Below are positions 3,689 to 34,368 of a stretch of 64,000 nucleotides of DNA, piece by piece; positions within the stretch are counted from its first letter, which is position 1, and each line of letters begins with the position of its first letter. This DNA is from Naegleria gruberi (taxonomy: Eukaryota): the NCBI GenBank assembly GCA_000004985.1, contig GG738863.1, one strand, 5' to 3'. The position numbers and the translations under genes are program-made. A model generated the notes under the pieces. That model searched no databases and was not told the DNA's origin. It saw only the letters and a list, made by a program, of their open reading frames with translations.

Positions 3689-6600
3689 ATGTTAAAACAA
3701 TTATTAGGAGAAATTGATGGCATTGGAAAGTCATCGATGGATGGTTTACATTCGCTGTTCGAGTCTCAAATGAATGATCTTACCATGAGAGCACAAAATT
3801 ATAAGGAACAAATAACAAATACATCATCATACTTTTATGCTACTCCATCATTTAAAGTGGGAGTGAAAGGACAATTAAATAGTAACAAGAAACCATTCCC
3901 GTTCTCCTTCAATTCTGGCAGTGCAAAGAAGACACCACTCAAGAGTCCTCCACATCTTCATAAAACTCCAATCGGATCACCTCATTCATTTAGAAAACAA
4001 ACACCTCTTGGTACAAGGAATTTTGATCAGGAACTTAATATTCAACCACACAATGTAACAATATCACAATCACCTCTCTTCAAATTTAAATCACCAATAG
4101 CAATGACCTCTGGTGGAAATAAGAAGAAACGAAAGTCTTCTTCCGTATCCAAGAGAAATATGTTATCGCCACCACCAATGATCGATTCAAATGTTGAATT
4201 GCCAAAGGAAATTGAATTATATGCACCAATACCTCCTCTTGAATTTGATAAGGATTTGGGTATTGATAAAGATGATGAAATGGACACTGATTCAATTAAG
4301 CCAATAGAGCCAGTCTTGATGAGTAAGAAGAATTCAGTGATGAGTGTAGATATGGAACTTGGTGTTGTTACTGCCTTACCTCAACCAGAAAGCAAGCAAG
4401 AAATGATTTCATCGCCACCACCTCCACAAACAATTACACTCCTCCAACAATTCCAAGAACCACAACAATTATCATACGAGAGACCACTTCAACCAGTTGT
4501 CATTCCACCATCAACAATATTCCAACTTCCAAAGGTCAAAGAAGAACCAATAAGTGATGAAGAAGAAATTGTTGTGAAAAAGAATAGACAACCTAAAAGA
4601 AAACCTAAACTTATTGCAGTGCAACAACCAAACAATAACACTACTAATGCTAATGTCAGTGTTTCAACAGTTGCTCAAGAACCACCAAAGGAACCTGAAG
4701 TCATTGTTATTGATGATGCTAAATCTGATGTGACAGAACAGTTATCTTGTCTTTTGATTTCTGAAGCATTGAAAGAAAATGAAAAGAATGAACAAGCTCT
4801 TGAACAATCAAATATTGTTCCTGTTCATTCATTCATTGTAAAACAAGAAATTGTTGATTCACCTGAAGTGGTCAATAAGACCTTCAATAGAACTTGTTTG
4901 GATGAAATGAATATTTCTATGATTCAACCAATCGAAGAAGATAGAAAGCAAACTGAATTCTCATTCCTCTCCAAAACTAAATTATTCCAAGACGCACATG
5001 ATGAAAGTGATGATAGTATCTTGTGCTTTAGTGCATCAGATGATGATCTTTTTGAAGATGACAAGGAAGAACATGAGAACGATGTTTGTGTCAAAATCAA
5101 TTTTGCCCCTCCTCCAGTTGTTAATATTTTCGAAAGACAACAATCAGTCCAAATTCCAAATCCGTTCAGTAACTTGAAAAAGACCAATAGTGCAGAGGCA
5201 GTTAAGGTCACATCCCTTCAAGAGAAGATTAAATCCTTAAAATCAGAGCCATGCATTCCTTCCATTCACTCAATGATGCAAAAGGCAGATGCAGATAGAC
5301 CATCTCTTGAACTTTCTGAACCGCCATGCACTCCAACTAGAACTCCTTCCATCTCAGGAGCCATTGAGAAACTTGGACAATTGTCGATTCACAATAAGAT
5401 TGAAGTAATGTTCTCACCACCAGAGGTTCAACTTTCTCCTCCACCTTTCGACTCTATTCCAGATTTCTCCTCACCAAAGTATTCTTCACTTCAACACATT
5501 AAATCTGAGGTTGCCACACCAAGGCAAGTGCAATCCCAAGATGATAACAATGCCCTCACACCAAAGAATGATATGCAATTGAGTACACCTCCAACAACCT
5601 CTAATGTCAAAGAGCCACCAACAATATCGCAACATGGCAAGTACAAACCATTTACTCCTAAATTTATGGAACCAAGACCTAATCCTACTGCTTCTTCTGA
5701 AATTCCATACGAAGATCCATTTGCTACTTTGAGGAGAGACTCTATCGATATCATTGATGTTGATGAGAATGAACACAAGAGAAAGTTCACCAATAAGGTT
5801 TCAACAGAGAGTAATGATCAAAAGAGACTGAAACTCAGCGAAACGAACCGTATTTCAATTTCTTCAGTGTCTTCCTGTTCCTCAATTTCCTCATTCCACA
5901 GTAATGCCAGTATTGGAGAGTTAAGCAATCCAGGAGTAGGCAATGTTGTGTCTAACATCTTTACTGGTGTCAAGTCATTTGTTTTCAAAGTTGCACAAAA
6001 CAAGAATAAGAGCAGTGTTGGTGCCTCAAAGAAGGCAATCAGCAGTTTGAAACTTGCAGAAGCTGCCAAAAAGAAGGAAGAAGATAAGAAGAATGCCAAG
6101 AAGGAAAAGTTGGAAAAGCAATTAGCTTTACAAAAGAAAAAGAAAGAACAAGAAGATAAATTAAAGGAAGATGCCAAGAAACAAACTAAACTTGTAAAGA
6201 CAAATAGTTCCAATAATACTTCCCAAAAGTCCATCGTAGAAGGATTGGCTCTAGCATCTGGTTCACGTTCCAGTAATATTTCAACTTGTTCCAATAGTAC
6301 CAATTCTCAAACCAATAAGAAGATAATAGGTCCACAAATAGGTCCAATGAACAAACCACAACCACCTAAGAAACAAACAACCCTCACAACAAAGCCACTT
6401 ACTGCTGTTCCTGAACCTAGAGTTTCCTCATACGATTTGAGTGATGAATATGACAGCTCAGAGGACGATGAAGTTGCTAAGAGAAGAAGACAACATAAGA
6501 AGATTCCATCTTGGGCTCAAGGTGAAACCCTCAAGAAGAATATCATTCGTACAACTAAGATTGACCCAGACAGAATATTTGGATCTGTTAGAACCTGTAA

Positions 6601-28378: not shown

Positions 28379-29253
28379 ATGAAAAAAGTGATTAAACAAT
28401 TTCGAATAACATCAAGCTTAAACAGGTGCAACAACGGAAAGAAATTTTGCTTCTATTCTCTGAGTCATGAATCAACTCCTGAATTGTTGGAAGAAATTGC
28501 ATTTCAAAATCATTACGAACAACATGCTCCTCTAAAAACTTATGAAAATTTGAATAATCCTCATAGAAAACTATACGAAAGGAAATCATATCTTGAATCA
28601 AAATATGTAACTGAAAAACGAGAACCCAAAACTTTCACAGACAAGCTTGCCAAAGGAATTGTAACGTGTATCAAAGCAATGATTGAATTATACTTTGGTA
28701 AGAGTAGGTACTTTCCAATAATCCATTTCTAATACTATAATTTTCCAAAAACTGTATAGATTATATGCAACATGCCATGTGTCTGGAAGCAATAGCTAGT
28801 ATTCCACCTCTCATCTTGGGAGTTATCAAACATTTTTCATTCGTCTTGAAAATGGACTACAAGGAATGCTTTGAATCAAATGCTCTTTTTGAGGAGGCTG
28901 AAAATGAAAGGATGCATCTAATGATTTGGCTTCAATTGTGTAAACCAACTAGATTGGATAGAGTCTTGGTTTTTCTTTCACAGTTTAGTTTTGCATGGTT
29001 CATATTGATTTCCAATATCATTTCTCCAAAATTTGTTAACAAATTATTGGAATATTTGGAGGAGGCATCCATTGATTCGTATACAGAATTTATGAAAGCC
29101 ATAGATAATGGAAATTACAAGCATGTTCCAATTCCAGAAATAGCCCTCGAATACTATCACATGGTTCCTCATACAGTTACTTTGAAAGATGTGGTTCTTT
29201 CCATAAGGGCAGATGAAGTTTACCATAGAGATTTTCACTTTAGGTTGCAATAA
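28379..29253 (+). CDS. aox: Alternative oxidase (AOX), mitochondrial; 2 exons (intron about 28697..28759, GTAAGA...TATAG)
   Basis: Di-iron carboxylate motifs: HAMCLEAIASIPP (compare RAMMLETVAAVPG), LFEEAENERMHLM, LEYLEEASIDSYTEFM (LEEEA...Y), RADEVYHRDFHF (RADEA.HR..NH). The splice restores ...IELYF-D-YMQHAMCLE. Confidence 0.85.
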
Positions 29254-29271: not shown

Positions 29272-30222
29272 TTATACTTCTGCTTTGTCTTTGATTTCTT
29301 GATCATTTTTCAATTCCACACTCAGATATCTGTAAATTTCTTTAGTAATATCTAACAATTCCAAAATGAAAGTTTTATCTTCCCTCAATTCACGTCCCAT
29401 GATATGATAAAACTTTTCTTCCTTTGTTTTCTGAAATGCAATCCTAAACAAATCTCTATCGTTTTCCATTCCGGGAACATTCACTCTACGTGCTTGGAAG
29501 ATAAAATCACGCAACGCATAAGGATTTTCTGATAGAATATCCTCTAAACAATTTCTATCGTTAAGAAGTGAATTAATGATATCAGAGTCAATGTATTCCA
29601 TTACTTCTGCTCTTCCCTTAATTGCCTTGATAGCAAGATCTCTATCTCTTTTCAATCGATTGCTTGCAAATTGAAGAGCCAAACCAGAAGTTTTAATAGC
29701 ATTCAATACTACTTCTTCATCATTTCTCAACTCTTCACTTGCATATTTCAAACTAAAGGCCGATTTTTCCAATACTTTACAAACAAATTCTCTGTCTCCT
29801 CTCAAATCATCAGGAACCAATGAAAATCCATCGATAATATCACCCTCCACCGAAGCTAAAATCACCTCCCTATCCCTCTTCAACTCATCACTCACTTCAG
29901 AGTAAGTGTACACTGATTTTTTCAAGCCTTCGATAACAACCTGCCTATCAGCCAGAAATTCCTTGGAAAGATCTCGATACTCCCACGCAGTCTTGCCAAT
30001 CAAAAAACTAAATGATGCCAAGGAATTATACTTTTTAATAGCCTCTAATAATATTTCTCTCTTTTGAAAACGGTCCATCTTTTCCCTTATTGTTAATTTG
30101 TAATGTTCTTCGAGTAGATTGATGGTAAGAGGCTGGGAAGTAATTTCTTCTCCAGTTTCGTCATTTTCCGAATTATTGGAACTTTGTGTATGGATGATTA
30201 AATCGTCGACTGCTTTTTGCAT
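29272..30222 (-). CDS. DUF4116 repeat protein
   Basis: Repeated units of about 38 aa of the DUF4116 type: ELKRDREVILASV..., DLRGDREFVCKVLEKSAFSLKYASEELRNDEEVVLNAIKTSGLALQFASNRLKRDRDLAIKAIK. Confidence 0.55.
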   Translation of the reverse strand: MQKAVDDLIIHTQSSNNSENDETGEEITSQPLTINLLEEHYKLTIREKMDRFQKREILLEAIKKYNSLASFSFLIGKTAWEYRDLSKEFLADRQVVIEGLKKSVYTYSEVSDELKRDREVILASVEGDIIDGFSLVPDDLRGDREFVCKVLEKSAFSLKYASEELRNDEEVVLNAIKTSGLALQFASNRLKRDRDLAIKAIKGRAEVMEYIDSDIINSLLNDRNCLEDILSENPYALRDFIFQARRVNVPGMENDRDLFRIAFQKTKEEKFYHIMGRELREDKTFILELLDITKEIYRYLSVELKNDQEIKDKAEV

Positions 30223-30379: not shown

Positions 30380-31436
30380 ATGGTGCACAATCAACAACAG
30401 CAACCACGAGGTGGTGATCAATATGATGATGACGAGGAATATGACGACTATGAACAATCGGAACAATCATACAACAATCAAGGATCATCGGATCAACCAA
30501 GAATTAAAAAATCAAACAAGATTAATGTTTGGGGAAATTCATCAACCATGAATATTACTCCCTATTTATATAAAAAGGTTTTGGCATCACCTTATTTTAA
30601 ATCATTGTATGAATACAAGACATATCATGAAGTTTTGGATTTAATTAAAAATATTAAATATATTCATCCATTTACTGATGGAGATACAAATGCAGAGCCT
30701 AGTATTGCATTTTCACTTTTATTCAAGTTGCATACATTGAAATTATCATATAAACAATTGAAGGGAATGTTACAAAAGGATATGTCAACAAATACAAAAG
30801 CTATGGCCTTGCTTTATGTGAGATTTGCTGTACAACCTGATGAAATGTGGGATTATTTTAGAGATTTTGTCAATGATGAAAATAATACTGTGAATATTTA
30901 TACGAAAAGAATGTAAGTTTAATTTTCGATTAATTATTAAATTTTCTTAATTTAATTATAATAATCGATTCAATAGTTCGTTGGGAGAATTTGTCAGGTC
31001 ATTAATTACAAATCAAAAATTATTTGGATCTCAATGTATTCTTCCAATATTGCCAGCAAATTTAGTGAGAAGAATGGAAGATTCTGATGAATTTTCTCAA
31101 TCATACCAAAAGAATAAGAGAAAGTATTATGAGAAGGATTATTCGGATAGGAGATCTTCATCATCTTATCAATCGGATTACTCAAGAAAGAAGCAAAAAT
31201 CTGATTCTAATACCACTCAACCATCTAAGAGCAATACAGAAACAGCAAACTCAGAGAAAGAAGATTTTGAACCTGCTGAATCTAGATTTTCAAAACCAAC
31301 CTTCGCCAAGACAGCCAATAATTCTCAATCATATTCGAAAAAATATGGAGCTATCACAAAGGAATACACAACCAATATAAGTTTTTCAAAAAAGGACATT
31401 ACTGAAGTCGAAACAGTAAAGCTCAGTAAAGACTAA
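30380..31436 (+). CDS. Pre-mRNA-splicing factor 38 (PRP38/PRPF38B-like); 2 exons (intron about 30915..30977, GTAAGT...CAATAG)
   Basis: VWGNSSTMNITPYLYKKVLASPYFKSLYEYKTYHEVLDLI...EPSIAFSLLFKLHTLKLSYKQLKGML...AMALLYVRFAVQPDEMWDYFRDF matches PRPF38B (IWGN.ETMN...SPYFK.LYELKTYHEV...AFCLLYKLFTLKLT.KQ...ALGFMYIRY...LWDWF). Exon 2 reads LGEFVRSLITNQKLFGSQCILPILP with a Ser/Arg/Lys-rich tail. The M at 30981 in the ORF track is a TTG. Confidence 0.8.
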
Positions 31437-31516: not shown

Positions 31517-34368
31517 TCAGATTTTAAAGTATTTGACACAGATACGACCGATAACACGGAGGATGTAACTGAATGGAATACACAAAATACCCAATACAAT
31601 ACAGACGAGCCATTGATACCAGTTGAGTGGGACAGTGTTAGTGAATCTACCACAGAATTGGACAATGATTGCTTGCATAATACCAGTGAAGAAGAAGATG
31701 ACAATAAACATCCATGACTTGTGAATGGATTCGAAGATGTTCCATTCGTTGTTAATCTTTCTACTGTTGAGTTCGTTGAAAAGTTGGCAGAAGACAAAAG
31801 CATTGAAAACAATAGTATTGTTGACTTCAGAGGCAGAGTAATCTCCAACAGCAGTAGCAAGACATTTACCATCATAACACAAGTATTGATAACCAGTATA
31901 GTAGAGACCCAAAAGGACAACCAATTGATATAAACCTTGACCAATAATGTGAATCCACATATTCTTAGTAATCAAACCATCATTTCTACCGTATGGCTTT
32001 CTGTCCAACAATTCTGGAATTGGAGGTTCAGTTGCGAGGGCCAAAGCAGCAAAGGTGTCCATGATCAAGTTAACCCACAAAAGTTGGATAGCAGTCAATG
32101 GAGGATCCATATGCTTACTATGAGAACCAGCTGGTGGACTAATAATGAATGAGGTCAAAGCAGTAATGACAGTAACCAACAAAGCACAAACGTTAACAGT
32201 CAATTGGAAGACTAAGAATTTACGAATATTTTCATAAATAGTTCTTCCCCACAAGACAGACTTGATAATAGAGCTAAAGTTATCATCCATAATAATAATA
32301 TCAGAGGCTTCCTTAGCAATTTGAGTACCAGCAATACCCATACTCAAACCAACATCAGCTTCCTTAAGAGCAGGACCATCGTTAGTACCGTCACCAGTAA
32401 CAGCAACAACTTCACCGAGAGCTCTGAGTCTCTTAACTAACTTAAACTTATCAGTTGGAGAAGATCTAGCCATAACTTGGAGTCTTGGCAAGATATCATC
32501 AATTTGATACATTGTCTACAGCATCATAACTTCACACGCAATGGATCCTTAATACCGACAATAGCAATCAAAGTAGAACCATTTTCAATAGCTTCTTGAT
32601 CTTCGAAATCTTCATTTCCTCTCAAATCCTTATAGGCCAAAGTCAAAGTTCTCAAACCTTGAGAAGCCATATTTTCAATATCTTGCATCCACTTCTTCTT
32701 TTCAGATTCGGACAAAGCAGAAACTGAACCATCCTTCAAAATTTGACTAGTACACAAACCCAAAACAATTTCAGAAGCACCCTTCAAGTACAATCTATGA
32801 GCACCTTCATCAGTCTTGACAATGACAGCCATTCTCTTCTTGGCAGATGAGAAGGTGTACAACTTTTCAATCTTATCATTTTCAGTATAATGCTTTCTAA
32901 TTGGAACATAATCAATACCCAAATCCTTCAAGAGAATCAAGAGAGAAGCTTCAGTCTTGTTACCACTGACTTCATATTCCTTCAAGGAACCAGTCTTTGG
33001 CTTGTTCAAAGAAGCCTTTGAGTTGACAGAAATACCGTGAGAAAGGACTTGAACAACCTTGGTATGCATTCCATCAGTATTATCTGGCAAACCATCAAGA
33101 TATTCTTCACCTGCAATGACAGCCTTGACAACTCTCATTTCGTTCAAAGTCAAAGTACCAGTCTTATCGGAACAAATGTTAGTAGCACCACCCATAGTTT
33201 CACAAGCTGACAAGTGTCTGACGAGATTGTTATCCTTCATCATCTTCTTGACAGAATAGGCCAAAGAAATAGTGACAGCCAATGGTAAACCTTCTGGAAC
33301 AGCAACGACGACAATAGTTACTGAAATAATAACAAATCCTACAATAGTACTAATATCAGACCAAGACCAAACATCGGTACCAACATTGGTTTGCCAAATC
33401 TTCTTAATCAACCAACCAGCCATCAAGACACAGAAAGTAGCAACAGCAAAACCAACACCGAATTTACCAATAAGAGTAGCCAAATCATCCAACTTGGCTT
33501 CAAGTGGAGTCTTGTCATCTTCATCATCAGCAGTAATCTTTGCCAATGTTTTACCCCATTCGGAGTTAACACCAACACAAGTAACTAACATTCTACCATA
33601 ACCTTCAGAAACAACTGTTCCGGAGAGAAGGAATGGAGCTTCGTCATTCTTCTTGATAAGATCAGTTTCACCAGTCATTACAGATTCATCAGTCTTCAAA
33701 TCGTGATATTCACAAATAACACCATCAGCTGGGACTTGATCACCTTGTTCAATTTCAACAATATCACCAACTACAATTTGACCAATTTGTACAGTACTTG
33801 TTTCACCATCACGGACAACTTTAATTTTGATGTCTTCGCTTTCCTTTGATAATTCTCTGAATTTACGTTCCTTTTGCCAATCGTTAACAGAGGCAACAGT
33901 GGAAACAATTAAAACGGCCAAAACAATGGCAAAACCTTCAATCCAACCGAATGGTCTGTCTTCTTCTCTTTCTGGGAAAGCAACACCCAAAACGATAGAG
34001 ACAACAGCTAATACTAATAAAACAATAAGAAGTGGATCTTGAATAGCTTCAAGGAAGAGTTTCCACAAAGGTACCATAGGTTTCTTTGGATATTCATTCT
34101 TACCAAATTGTTCTTGTCTGTCAGCTTCTTCAGCGAAGTGAATACCTTTTCTAAGATCAGTATTTAAAGCGTTAGCAAGACCTTCAGAACCTCCCAATTC
34201 TCTGAGAGCTAACACATCTCTACTTTCCAACAAGTCATCCAATTGTTGGAGAGTCACGCTATAGGAACCGTAGCTGTCCCTCATTTCTACGTCGCGTGGC
34301 ATTTTTTTTTGGGCTTTTTCATAGAAGGGGTGTTGGGTAATAAATATAACTGAAGAAGTTTGGCGCAA
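31517..34368 (-). CDS. P2B-type (PMCA-like) Ca2+-transporting P-type ATPase; apparently disrupted between ORFs 32524..34368 and 31517..32512 (see findings)
   Basis: Motifs present: DKTGTLT phosphorylation site, TGE-like actuator region, KGA(S)EIV, DPLR, and then MARSSPTDK...VAVTGDGTNDGPALKEADVGLSMGIAGT...DDNFSSI plus TM7-10. The likely start is MPRDVEMRD (ATG about 34303). Confidence 0.85.

What the first reader, a model, noticed from the sequence alone, without database searches (positions are those of the whole stretch)
32440..32600. PMCA-type Ca2+-ATPase lacks about 80 codons of the P-domain and changes frame at 32512/32524
The upstream ORF ends ...LIAIVGIKDPLRVKL*. That is the DP(P/V)R motif, which in P2 ATPases is followed by about 80 residues containing (M)VTGDN and the run leading into ...ARSSPTDK. 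Here the next ORF begins 12 nt later with ...QIDDILPRLQVMARSSPTDK, so those about 80 residues are absent.

The two ORFs are in different frames. The only GT...AG candidate between them is 15 nt, too short for an intron.

The resulting protein would lack part of the nucleotide-binding and P-domain hinge. Possible explanations are a recent internal deletion that made a pseudogene, an assembly collapse, or a very unusual truncated pump.
Basis: partly seen in the sequence, partly recalled or inferred. Interest (0 to 1): 0.6.

Follow-up and report, generated by a model that had tools for sequence, protein, structure and literature searches.

The report
Broken calcium-pump gene, probably assembly error
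A plasma-membrane-type calcium pump gene of the amoeba Naegleria gruberi lacks 139 bases, including an essential catalytic motif, at one spot in the public draft genome; this is most likely a local sequencing or assembly error, or else a recent knockout mutation, and not a new kind of pump.

Summary
On the minus strand, ORF-A (32524..34368) ends ...GIKDPLRVKL*. ORF-B (31517..32512) starts MYQIDDILPRLQVMARSSPTDK in another frame. The TGDN segment is absent from the whole window.

The window is Naegleria gruberi NEG-M. The gene is already public as XP_002678219.1 (915 aa).

Three syntenic orthologues (75-82% identical) are single uninterrupted ORFs. Against them, N. gruberi lacks three single bases (at about 32535, 32527 and 32518) and 136 nt (between 32509 and 32508). 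That is 139 nt, or 46 codons plus 1, not about 80 codons. The "intron" is garbled coding sequence for VEVIDAV.

Every other indel in the 2.8-kb gene, apart from the poorly aligned first ~25 nt of the CDS, is a multiple of 3. There is no excess of amino-acid change. 119 of the 120 best homologues keep TGD.

Four lesions within 27 nt of an otherwise pristine gene, in a Sanger draft, point to a local sequencing or assembly artefact (about 0.6). The rival is one recent complex mutation giving a null allele or pseudogene (about 0.33). A functional truncated pump is very unlikely. No independent N. gruberi data could be reached, so the choice stays open. Interest is low.

The parts
32536..34284 (-). 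Exon 1 of the public model XP_002678219.1, which is the in-frame part of ORF-A (the ORF itself runs 32524..34368). It encodes the cation-ATPase N-terminus, the A-domain (MTGETD), TM1-4 (PEGLP), the phosphorylation site DKTGT, the N-domain (KGASE) and the DPLR motif.
   Evidence: 583 codons here plus 332 in exon 2 give 915 aa, which is the length of P0001. Pfam hits: PF00690, PF00122, PF13246.
32516..32535 (-). 20-nt pseudo-intron GTGAAGTTATGATGCTGTAG, which the public gene model uses to bridge the frame. It is in fact a garbled remnant of the codons for V-E-V-I-D-A-V.
   Evidence: The P0001 alignment joins DPLR|TMYQIDD. It is the only short GT..AG that restores the frame. It aligns base for base with orthologue coding sequence apart from three 1-nt gaps. 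Real introns in the window are about 44-110 nt, AT-rich, and start GTAAGT, GTATGT, GTTAGT or GTAGGT.
32509..32535 (-). Remnant of the VEVIDAVKQC codons. It carries three single-base gaps relative to the orthologues (after 32535, after 32527 and after 32518) and one A-to-G difference (32516). These gaps create the in-frame TGA at 32526..32524.
   Evidence: The three-frame translation shows RV / EV / DAV / RQC in successive frames.
32508..32509 (-). Junction of the 136-nt gap (45 codons plus 1 nt). In the orthologues this stretch encodes KKSGIFVRMVTGDNILTAQHIARECGILFGDGIAIEGPNFRKMSD.
   Evidence: Placement is uncertain by a few nt, because CAATGT on the left resembles (A/G)GATG on the right.
31517..32512 (-). 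ORF-B, the C-terminal third of the pump. It starts at an incidental ATG (MYQIDDILPRLQVMARSSPTDK) and contains GDGTND, TM5-10 and the Cation_ATPase_C domain. Exon 2 of the public model is 31517..32515.
   Evidence: (PF00689, E = 5e-47).
30380..31436 (+). PRP38-family gene, convergent with the pump gene. It serves as a synteny anchor showing that L001-L003 are positional orthologues.
   Evidence: PF03371. Searches show PRP38 downstream of the pump, on the opposite strand, in all three orthologous loci. It has a 63-nt GTAAGT...ATAG intron.

Best explanation
The window carries the single-exon PMCA/ACA-type (P2B) Ca2+-ATPase gene of Naegleria gruberi NEG-M (XP_002678219.1 / D2VCT4).

In the deposited 2010 Sanger draft assembly the sequence is corrupted over about 30 nt. 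Three single bases are dropped within 18 nt, and 136 nt are missing immediately downstream. Together these remove or garble the segment VEVIDAVKQCKKSGIFVRMVTGDN...FRKMSD of the P-domain.

I think the most likely cause is a local sequencing or assembly error. This would be a consensus built from poor-quality or aberrant reads, for example low-quality read tails or a deleted clone at a thinly covered spot. On this reading the real gene in the organism is intact and encodes a normal pump about 46 residues longer than the public 915-aa model (about 961 aa).

The annotation pipeline then papered over the frame break with an artificial 20-nt intron.

Shown: the anatomy of the lesion, its uniqueness within the gene, and the non-intron nature of the 20 nt.
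Inferred: that the cause is technical rather than biological.
For: 1. Identity. The query built from the two ORFs is 100% identical to P0001, 'P-type II calcium ATPase [Naegleria gruberi]', 915 aa. This equals exon 32536..34284 plus exon 31517..32515, so the model uses a 20-nt intron.
2. Orthologues. Three positional orthologues are single uninterrupted ORFs of 975-1008 aa that carry the segment. PRP38 is convergent downstream of the pump in all three, as in the window.
3. Gaps. The DNA alignment gives gaps of 1, 1, 1 and 136 nt at 32535, 32527, 32518 and 32509. Every other indel across 2.8 kb is a multiple of 3, apart from the poorly aligned first ~25 nt of the CDS.
4. Clustering. If four independent lesions fell at random in 2,786 nt, the chance that all lie within 27 nt is about 7e-6 (my arithmetic). 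So this is one local event or one local technical fault.
5. Type of error. All three small lesions are single-base drop-outs, two of them in TT doublets. This is the typical error of poorly resolved Sanger base-calling (my knowledge).
6. No decay. N. gruberi has 20 lineage-specific residue changes where the other three orthologues agree, against 18, 35 and 76 for the others. Its four changes at sites invariant in all six others are conservative: L>I, A>S, V>I, V>I.
7. Assembly type. The NEG-M assembly is a Sanger draft with 1,977 contigs in 784 scaffolds.
8. Motif conservation. TGD is present in 119 of the 120 best homologues. The DPxR-to-GDGxND spacing is 96-113 residues in 118 of them, against 44 here; the one other short value, P0032, comes from a second DPxR and TGD is present there.
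Against: - No independent N. gruberi reads, transcripts or second assembly could be reached, so the artefact is not demonstrated.
- The break lies inside a contig with no N anywhere in the 64-kb window. Poor base-calling alone cannot remove 136 nt, so a second fault is needed, such as a deleted clone or a spurious join.
- The flanks share only 5-7-nt exact words in the orthologues, too short for an ordinary assembler overlap.
- I could not demonstrate any other frame-broken gene in the window. The assembly is therefore not generally poor here.
- Naegleria is described as mainly a heterozygous diploid, and N. gruberi has at least two other P2B pumps (P0019 and P0023). A real null allele would therefore be tolerable.
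Confidence: 0.6

Rival explanations
1. The lesion is real. A single recent complex mutation occurred in strain NEG-M or its lineage: a deletion of about 136 nt with error-prone repair synthesis on one flank. It inactivated this pump gene, giving either a fresh pseudogene or a null allele of a heterozygous locus that happened to enter the consensus. ORF-A would be translated into a 580-590-residue fragment ending ...DPLRVKL. There would be no pump activity, and paralogous PMCA genes would cover the function.
For: - The sequence as deposited is unambiguous, lies within a contig, and the window has no N.
- Short similarity between the left flank (CAATGT / GAAGTTATTGATG) and the right flank (GATG / GAAATTGATGAT) in the orthologues would suit microhomology-mediated deletion.
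- Paralogues exist in N. gruberi: P0019 and P0023, 48-49% identical.
- Naegleria is described as mainly a heterozygous diploid, and long-cultured strains accumulate changes.
- The absence of any other decay fits a very recent event.
Against: - Three separate 1-nt deletions spaced 8-9 nt apart beside a large deletion are unusual for a natural mutation and common for poor sequence reads (my knowledge).
- The gene is otherwise under evident constraint, and its position and structure are conserved in three relatives.
- There is no population or read evidence either way.
Confidence: 0.33
2. The public model is right. The 20 nt GTGAAG...TGTAG is spliced out as a miniature intron, and N. gruberi makes a 915-aa P2B ATPase that naturally lacks the TGDN segment and has some altered or non-pumping role.
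For: The 20-nt segment has GT..AG ends and is the only short candidate that restores the frame. Both flanking ORFs are intact and conserved. The model is in RefSeq and UniProt.
Against: - Introns seen in this window are about 44-110 nt, AT-rich, and start GTAAGT, GTATGT, GTTAGT or GTAGGT. The average N. gruberi intron is 203 bp.
- The 20 nt align to orthologue codons VEVIDAV with three 1-nt gaps, so they are damaged coding sequence and not an intron.
- The orthologues have no intron here.
- TGDN is a core P-type ATPase sequence involved in Mg2+ coordination, and proteins lacking core sequences are judged non-functional.
- 119 of the 120 best homologues keep TGD.
Confidence: 0.03
3. The missing coding segment exists elsewhere and is supplied by an unusual route: a displaced exon, trans-splicing, ribosomal frameshifting or translational bypass.
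For: None beyond the bare fact that the two ORFs are intact.
Against: - No trace of the segment exists anywhere in the 64-kb window by motif search, tblastn or blastn.
- Frameshifting cannot join the ORFs. The ORF-A stop (32526..32524) lies upstream of a TAG in the ORF-B frame (32518..32516), so the two open frames do not overlap.
- Even a bypass would not restore TGDN.
Confidence: 0.01

Closest known systems
P2B (PMCA/ACA-type) plasma-membrane Ca2+-ATPases, e.g. Arabidopsis ACA8 (PDB 8qmp), human PMCA1 (6a69) and PMCA2 (9gsd)
   Same: The intact orthologue P0002 matches these at E = 1e-226 to 1e-233 over nearly its full length. The window gene keeps MTGETD, PEGLP, DKTGT, KGASE, DPLR, GDGTND and TM5-10.
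   Different: The deposited N. gruberi sequence lacks the stretch that aligns to the VRMVTGDN...CGIL...EG..F region of human PMCA1, within residues 637-855 of chain 6a69_A. It is also split into two frames.
Positional orthologues in close relatives: ENA contigs ERZ2098899 NODE_181 (P0002) and ERZ27315067 k141_449019 (P0003), and Willaertia magna ABK040_007865 (P0004)
   Same: They are 75-82% identical in protein and 77-81% in DNA. They have the same neighbour, a convergent PRP38 gene, and the same intron-less structure.
   Different: They carry the 139 nt that N. gruberi lacks and read through as single ORFs of 975-1008 aa.
Annotation artefact: tiny 'introns' placed by homology-based gene modellers to step over frameshifts in draft assemblies
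   Same: The public model XP_002678219.1 places a 20-nt GT..AG intron exactly over the two stop codons at the frame break.
   Different: I could not inspect the annotation pipeline's records. That the intron is a modelling device is inferred from its length, its sequence and its homology to coding sequence.

Membership tests
P-type ATPase, subfamily P2B (PMCA/ACA Ca2+ pump) | Phosphorylation motif DKTGT | tested here: met
   ICSDKTGTLT at about 33168 on the minus strand.
P-type ATPase, subfamily P2B (PMCA/ACA Ca2+ pump) | A-domain TGES-type motif and M4 PEGLP motif | tested here: met
   SVMTGETD (the TGET variant, shared by all seven aligned sequences) and VPEGLPLAV.
P-type ATPase, subfamily P2B (PMCA/ACA Ca2+ pump) | Core sequence TGDN in the P-domain, between DPxR and GDGxND | tested here: not met
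   It is absent from the gene and from all six frames of the window. It is present in 119 of the 120 best homologues. It is described as core sequence 6 and as involved in Mg2+ coordination.
P-type ATPase, subfamily P2B (PMCA/ACA Ca2+ pump) | Hinge motif GDGxND and the C-terminal TM5-10 domain | tested here: met
   VAVTGDGTNDGP at about 32395. PF00689 Cation_ATPase_C at E = 5e-47.
P-type ATPase, subfamily P2B (PMCA/ACA Ca2+ pump) | Closest solved relatives are PMCA/ACA rather than SERCA, SPCA or Na,K-ATPase | tested here: met
   ACA8, PMCA1 and PMCA2 score 756-778 bits, against at most 361 bits for the other classes.
P-type ATPase, subfamily P2B (PMCA/ACA Ca2+ pump) | One continuous reading frame (after credible splicing) that encodes all domains | tested here: not met
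   There are two ORFs in different frames. No credible intron joins them, and frameshifting is impossible because the open frames do not overlap.
Spliceosomal intron of N. gruberi (applied to the 20 nt at 32516..32535) | Length and sequence like the organism's other introns | tested here: not met
   It is 20 nt, against about 44-110 nt for introns seen in this window and a 203-bp genome average. Its donor is GTGAAG rather than GTAAGT, GTATGT, GTTAGT or GTAGGT, and its composition is that of coding sequence.
Spliceosomal intron of N. gruberi (applied to the 20 nt at 32516..32535) | Non-coding: no homology to exon sequence of orthologues, or a shared intron position | tested here: not met
   It aligns to the codons VEVIDAV of three orthologues, which have no intron anywhere in the gene.
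Spliceosomal intron of N. gruberi (applied to the 20 nt at 32516..32535) | Removal seen in transcripts | not testable with these tools
   No N. gruberi transcript data could be reached. RNA-seq exists publicly.
Old (decayed) pseudogene | Several independent disabling lesions and relaxed constraint along the gene | tested here: not met
   All frame-breaking gaps lie within 27 nt, and the rest of the 2.8 kb has only 3n indels apart from the poorly aligned first ~25 nt of the CDS. There is no excess of lineage-specific substitutions. A very recent pseudogene is not excluded.

The most novel reading that the evidence does not exclude
The most novel reading not formally excluded is this. The 20-nt GT..AG segment is really spliced in N. 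gruberi, which would make it one of the shortest spliceosomal introns known outside ciliates and nucleomorphs. The cell would then make a conserved P2B ATPase that lacks the TGDN core motif and has a non-canonical function.

A milder version is that NEG-M truly carries a freshly inactivated PMCA allele produced by one complex deletion event.
Probability: 0.03. Interest if true: 0.55.

Novelty: not a real feature. Interest (0 to 1): 0.08.

Why it matters
The practical value is for curation. The RefSeq/UniProt entry XP_002678219.1 / D2VCT4_NAEGR is a defective model of a normal Ca2+ pump: 915 aa, no TGDN, and a 20-nt intron. It should not be used as evidence for a TGDN-less P-type ATPase or for ultra-short introns in Heterolobosea. 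It should also not be taken at face value in comparative surveys of Ca2+-signalling toolkits.

If the lesion proved real, it would be an ordinary strain-specific loss of one of several PMCA paralogues. It does not open any long-standing question.

Tried and rejected
- Tiny-intron organism (Stentor/Blepharisma- or Paramecium-like). I considered this first because of the 15- and 20-nt GT..AG segments. I rejected it once nearby introns proved to be about 44-110 nt and the organism was identified as N. gruberi.
- Missing exon elsewhere in the window. Motif, tblastn and blastn searches found nothing.
- Ribosomal frameshift. Excluded by the order of the stop codons.
- Other frame-restoring GT..AG pairs (44, 47, 62 nt and longer). 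All remove conserved codons such as GIKDPLR or IDDILP, and none has a consensus donor.
- Search for independent N. gruberi evidence. Two targeted protein searches for read-derived fragments gave a best identity of 75% and 50%, so none came from N. gruberi. Exact-product look-ups for P0001, ORF-B and a neighbouring single-exon gene found nothing on record. Two metagenome scans, one with peptide patterns and one with a 25-nt flank, gave no hits.
- Search for other broken genes in the window, as a gauge of local assembly quality. Other adjacent different-frame ORF pairs are explained by ordinary introns or have no shared family.
- The genome paper (PMID 20211133) is not held.
- I did not run structure prediction, because it would not discriminate between an artefact and a real deletion.
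Full report
**What is in the sequence**

The feature lies on the minus strand. ORF-A (32524..34368) ends ...STLIAIVGIKDPLRVKL, with TGA at 32526..32524. ORF-B (31517..32512) starts MYQIDDILPRLQVMARSSPTDK, 11 nt further on and in another frame.

Pfam places the cation-ATPase N-terminus, the E1-E2 ATPase domain and the N-domain in ORF-A, and Cation_ATPase_C in ORF-B. DKTGT, PEGLP, SSPTDK and GDGTND are each present once. No TGDN occurs in any frame of the 64-kb window. tblastn and blastn with the orthologues' missing segment find only the retained (E/Q)ID(E/D)ILPRLQV, and nothing elsewhere.

**Whose gene it is**

A search with the two ORFs joined returned a 100%-identical 915-aa protein, 'P-type II calcium ATPase [Naegleria gruberi]'. 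Its accessions are EFC45475.1, XP_002678219.1 and D2VCT4_NAEGR, from strain NEG-M, on a 467,654-bp scaffold.

The length of 915 aa corresponds exactly to exon 32536..34284 plus exon 31517..32515. In the alignment the protein reads ...GIKDPLR|TMYQIDD.... The public model therefore removes the 20 nt GTGAAGTTATGATGCTGTAG (32516..32535) as an intron.

There are in fact 15-, 20- and 22-nt candidates ending at the same AG, and the 20-nt one restores the frame.

**Comparison with orthologues**

The next-best hits are 975, 1008 and 1003 aa long and 82, 80 and 75% identical. Two come from ENA metagenome assemblies and one from Willaertia magna. Their loci were fetched as L001-L003. In each, the pump is one uninterrupted ORF, and a PRP38 gene lies convergent just downstream, as in the window. 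They are therefore positional orthologues.

In the protein alignment the N. gruberi model lacks 53 columns, (V/P)EVIDAVKQCKKSGIFVRMVTGDNILTA.HIARECGIL.G.G.AIEGP.FRK(M/L). Its TMYQ replaces (S/T)D(D/E)E.

At the DNA level, N. gruberi reads CGTG-TGAAGTTA-TGATGCTGT-AGACAATGT[136-nt gap]ATCAAATTGATGATATC, against CGTGTTGAAGTTATTGATGC(C/T)GTCAA(G/A)CAATGTAAAAAG... in L001 and L002 (L003 begins CGTCCT, with a proline codon). A whole-gene alignment puts the gaps after 32535, 32527, 32518 (1 nt each) and 32509 (136 nt). Every other indel between N. gruberi and the three orthologues over 2.8 kb is a multiple of three, apart from the poorly aligned first ~25 nt of the CDS.

The loss is thus 139 nt, or 46 codons plus 1. 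This is not about 80 codons. The supposed intron is recognisable, damaged coding sequence for V-E-V-I-D-A-V. The three-frame translation shows the remnants RV, EV, DAV and RQC in successive frames.

**Why it is not an intron, a frameshift site or a hidden exon**

- Introns visible in this window are about 44-110 nt, AT-rich, and start GTAAGT, GTATGT, GTTAGT or GTAGGT.
- The genome-wide average intron in N. gruberi is given as 203 bp.
- The other frame-restoring GT..AG pairs (44, 47, 62 nt and longer) would delete conserved codons and lack consensus donors.
- Ribosomal frameshifting cannot join the ORFs. The ORF-A stop lies upstream of a TAG (32518..32516) in the ORF-B frame, so the open frames do not overlap.
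- None of these routes would restore TGDN in any case.

**Could the truncated protein be a working pump?**

Among the 120 best homologues, 119 have TGD between DKTGT and GDGxND. The DPxR-to-GDGxND spacing is 96-113 residues in 118 of them, against 44 in the N. gruberi model. The one other short value, P0032, comes from a second DPxR, and TGD is present there.

The missing piece aligns to the VRMVTGDN...CGIL...EG..F region of human PMCA1 (6a69), PMCA2 and Arabidopsis ACA8. TGDN is one of the core sequences of P-type ATPases. It is described as involved in Mg2+ coordination, and family surveys treat proteins lacking core sequences as non-functional or as pseudogenes.

From established structural knowledge of SERCA and PMCA (my knowledge, not tested here), this stretch forms part of the Rossmann-fold core of the P-domain. 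A functional pump without it is very unlikely.

**Artefact or real mutation?**

Outside the lesion the gene shows no decay. N. gruberi has 20 lineage-specific residue changes at positions where the other three orthologues agree, against 18, 35 and 76 for those three. Its four changes at positions invariant in all six other aligned proteins are conservative: L>I, A>S, V>I and V>I. An old pseudogene is therefore excluded.

All four frame-breaking gaps lie within 27 nt of a 2,786-nt gene. For independent events the chance of this is about 7e-6 (my arithmetic). So there was either one local technical fault or one complex mutational event.

Points that favour a technical fault:
- The three small lesions are all single-base drop-outs, two of them in TT doublets. 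This is the typical error of poorly resolved Sanger reads (my knowledge).
- They lie directly beside the large gap.
- The NEG-M assembly is a Sanger draft of 1,977 contigs in 784 scaffolds.
- The pipeline's 20-nt intron is the sort of device used to step over assembly frameshifts (inference).

Points against a technical fault:
- The site lies within a contig, and the window has no N.
- Bad base-calling alone does not delete 136 nt.
- The flanks share only 5-7-nt exact words in the orthologues.
- I found no other demonstrably broken gene in the window.
- A real null allele would be tolerable. Naegleria is described as mainly a heterozygous diploid, and N. gruberi has other P2B pumps, P0019 and P0023.

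My estimates are: artefact about 0.6, real recent lesion about 0.33, and everything else about 0.05.

**Attempts at independent evidence**

All attempts failed.
- Two targeted protein searches for read-derived N. gruberi fragments across the junction gave a best identity of 75% and 50%.
- Exact-product look-ups of P0001, ORF-B and a neighbouring single-exon gene found nothing on record.
- Two metagenome scans were empty.

Decisive data do exist outside these tools. A 2025 study generated a nanopore assembly of N. gruberi polished with public Illumina reads, and it used public RNA-seq.

**Verdict**

The gene is an ordinary, already annotated PMCA-type pump. The break is most likely a local error of the 2010 draft, and otherwise a recent null mutation. 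Neither is novel biology. The useful outcome is a flag on a defective public gene model. Interest is low.

Noticed in passing
window 30380..31436 (+): A PRP38-family splicing-factor gene, convergent with the pump gene. It has a 63-nt GTAAGT...ATAG intron at about 30914..30976. The same neighbour is conserved in all three orthologous loci.
   Followed up: partly
window 28379..29253 (+): An alternative oxidase (AOX, PF01786) gene, split by a short intron of about 60 nt around 28700..28760 (GTAAGA...TATAG).
   Followed up: partly
window 29272..30222 (-): A 316-aa single-exon protein made of six DUF4116 repeats (PF13475, E = 6e-49).
   Followed up: partly
window 35079..37191 (-): A leishmanolysin (peptidase M8)-like gene. 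ORF 35079..36401 matches only the C-terminal half of the profile and ends in a TM segment with a Cys-rich tail. The upstream ORF 36481..37191 has no Pfam hit and may be the N-terminal half across an intron of about 80 nt. The catalytic half was not checked.
   Followed up: no
window 56737..57725 (+) and 5489..6306 (-): Pairs of adjacent or overlapping long ORFs in different frames, with no GTAAGT-like donor nearby. One member contains a BTB_2 domain. No shared family was found, so there is no evidence that they are frame-broken genes, but this was not resolved.
   Followed up: partly
P0123 (Naegleria lovaniensis C9374_005958, 351 aa): This short N. lovaniensis model, named 'PH domain-containing protein' in UniRef, is 70% identical to the reconstituted junction region. 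It may be a fragmentary or mis-modelled orthologue of this pump.
   Followed up: no
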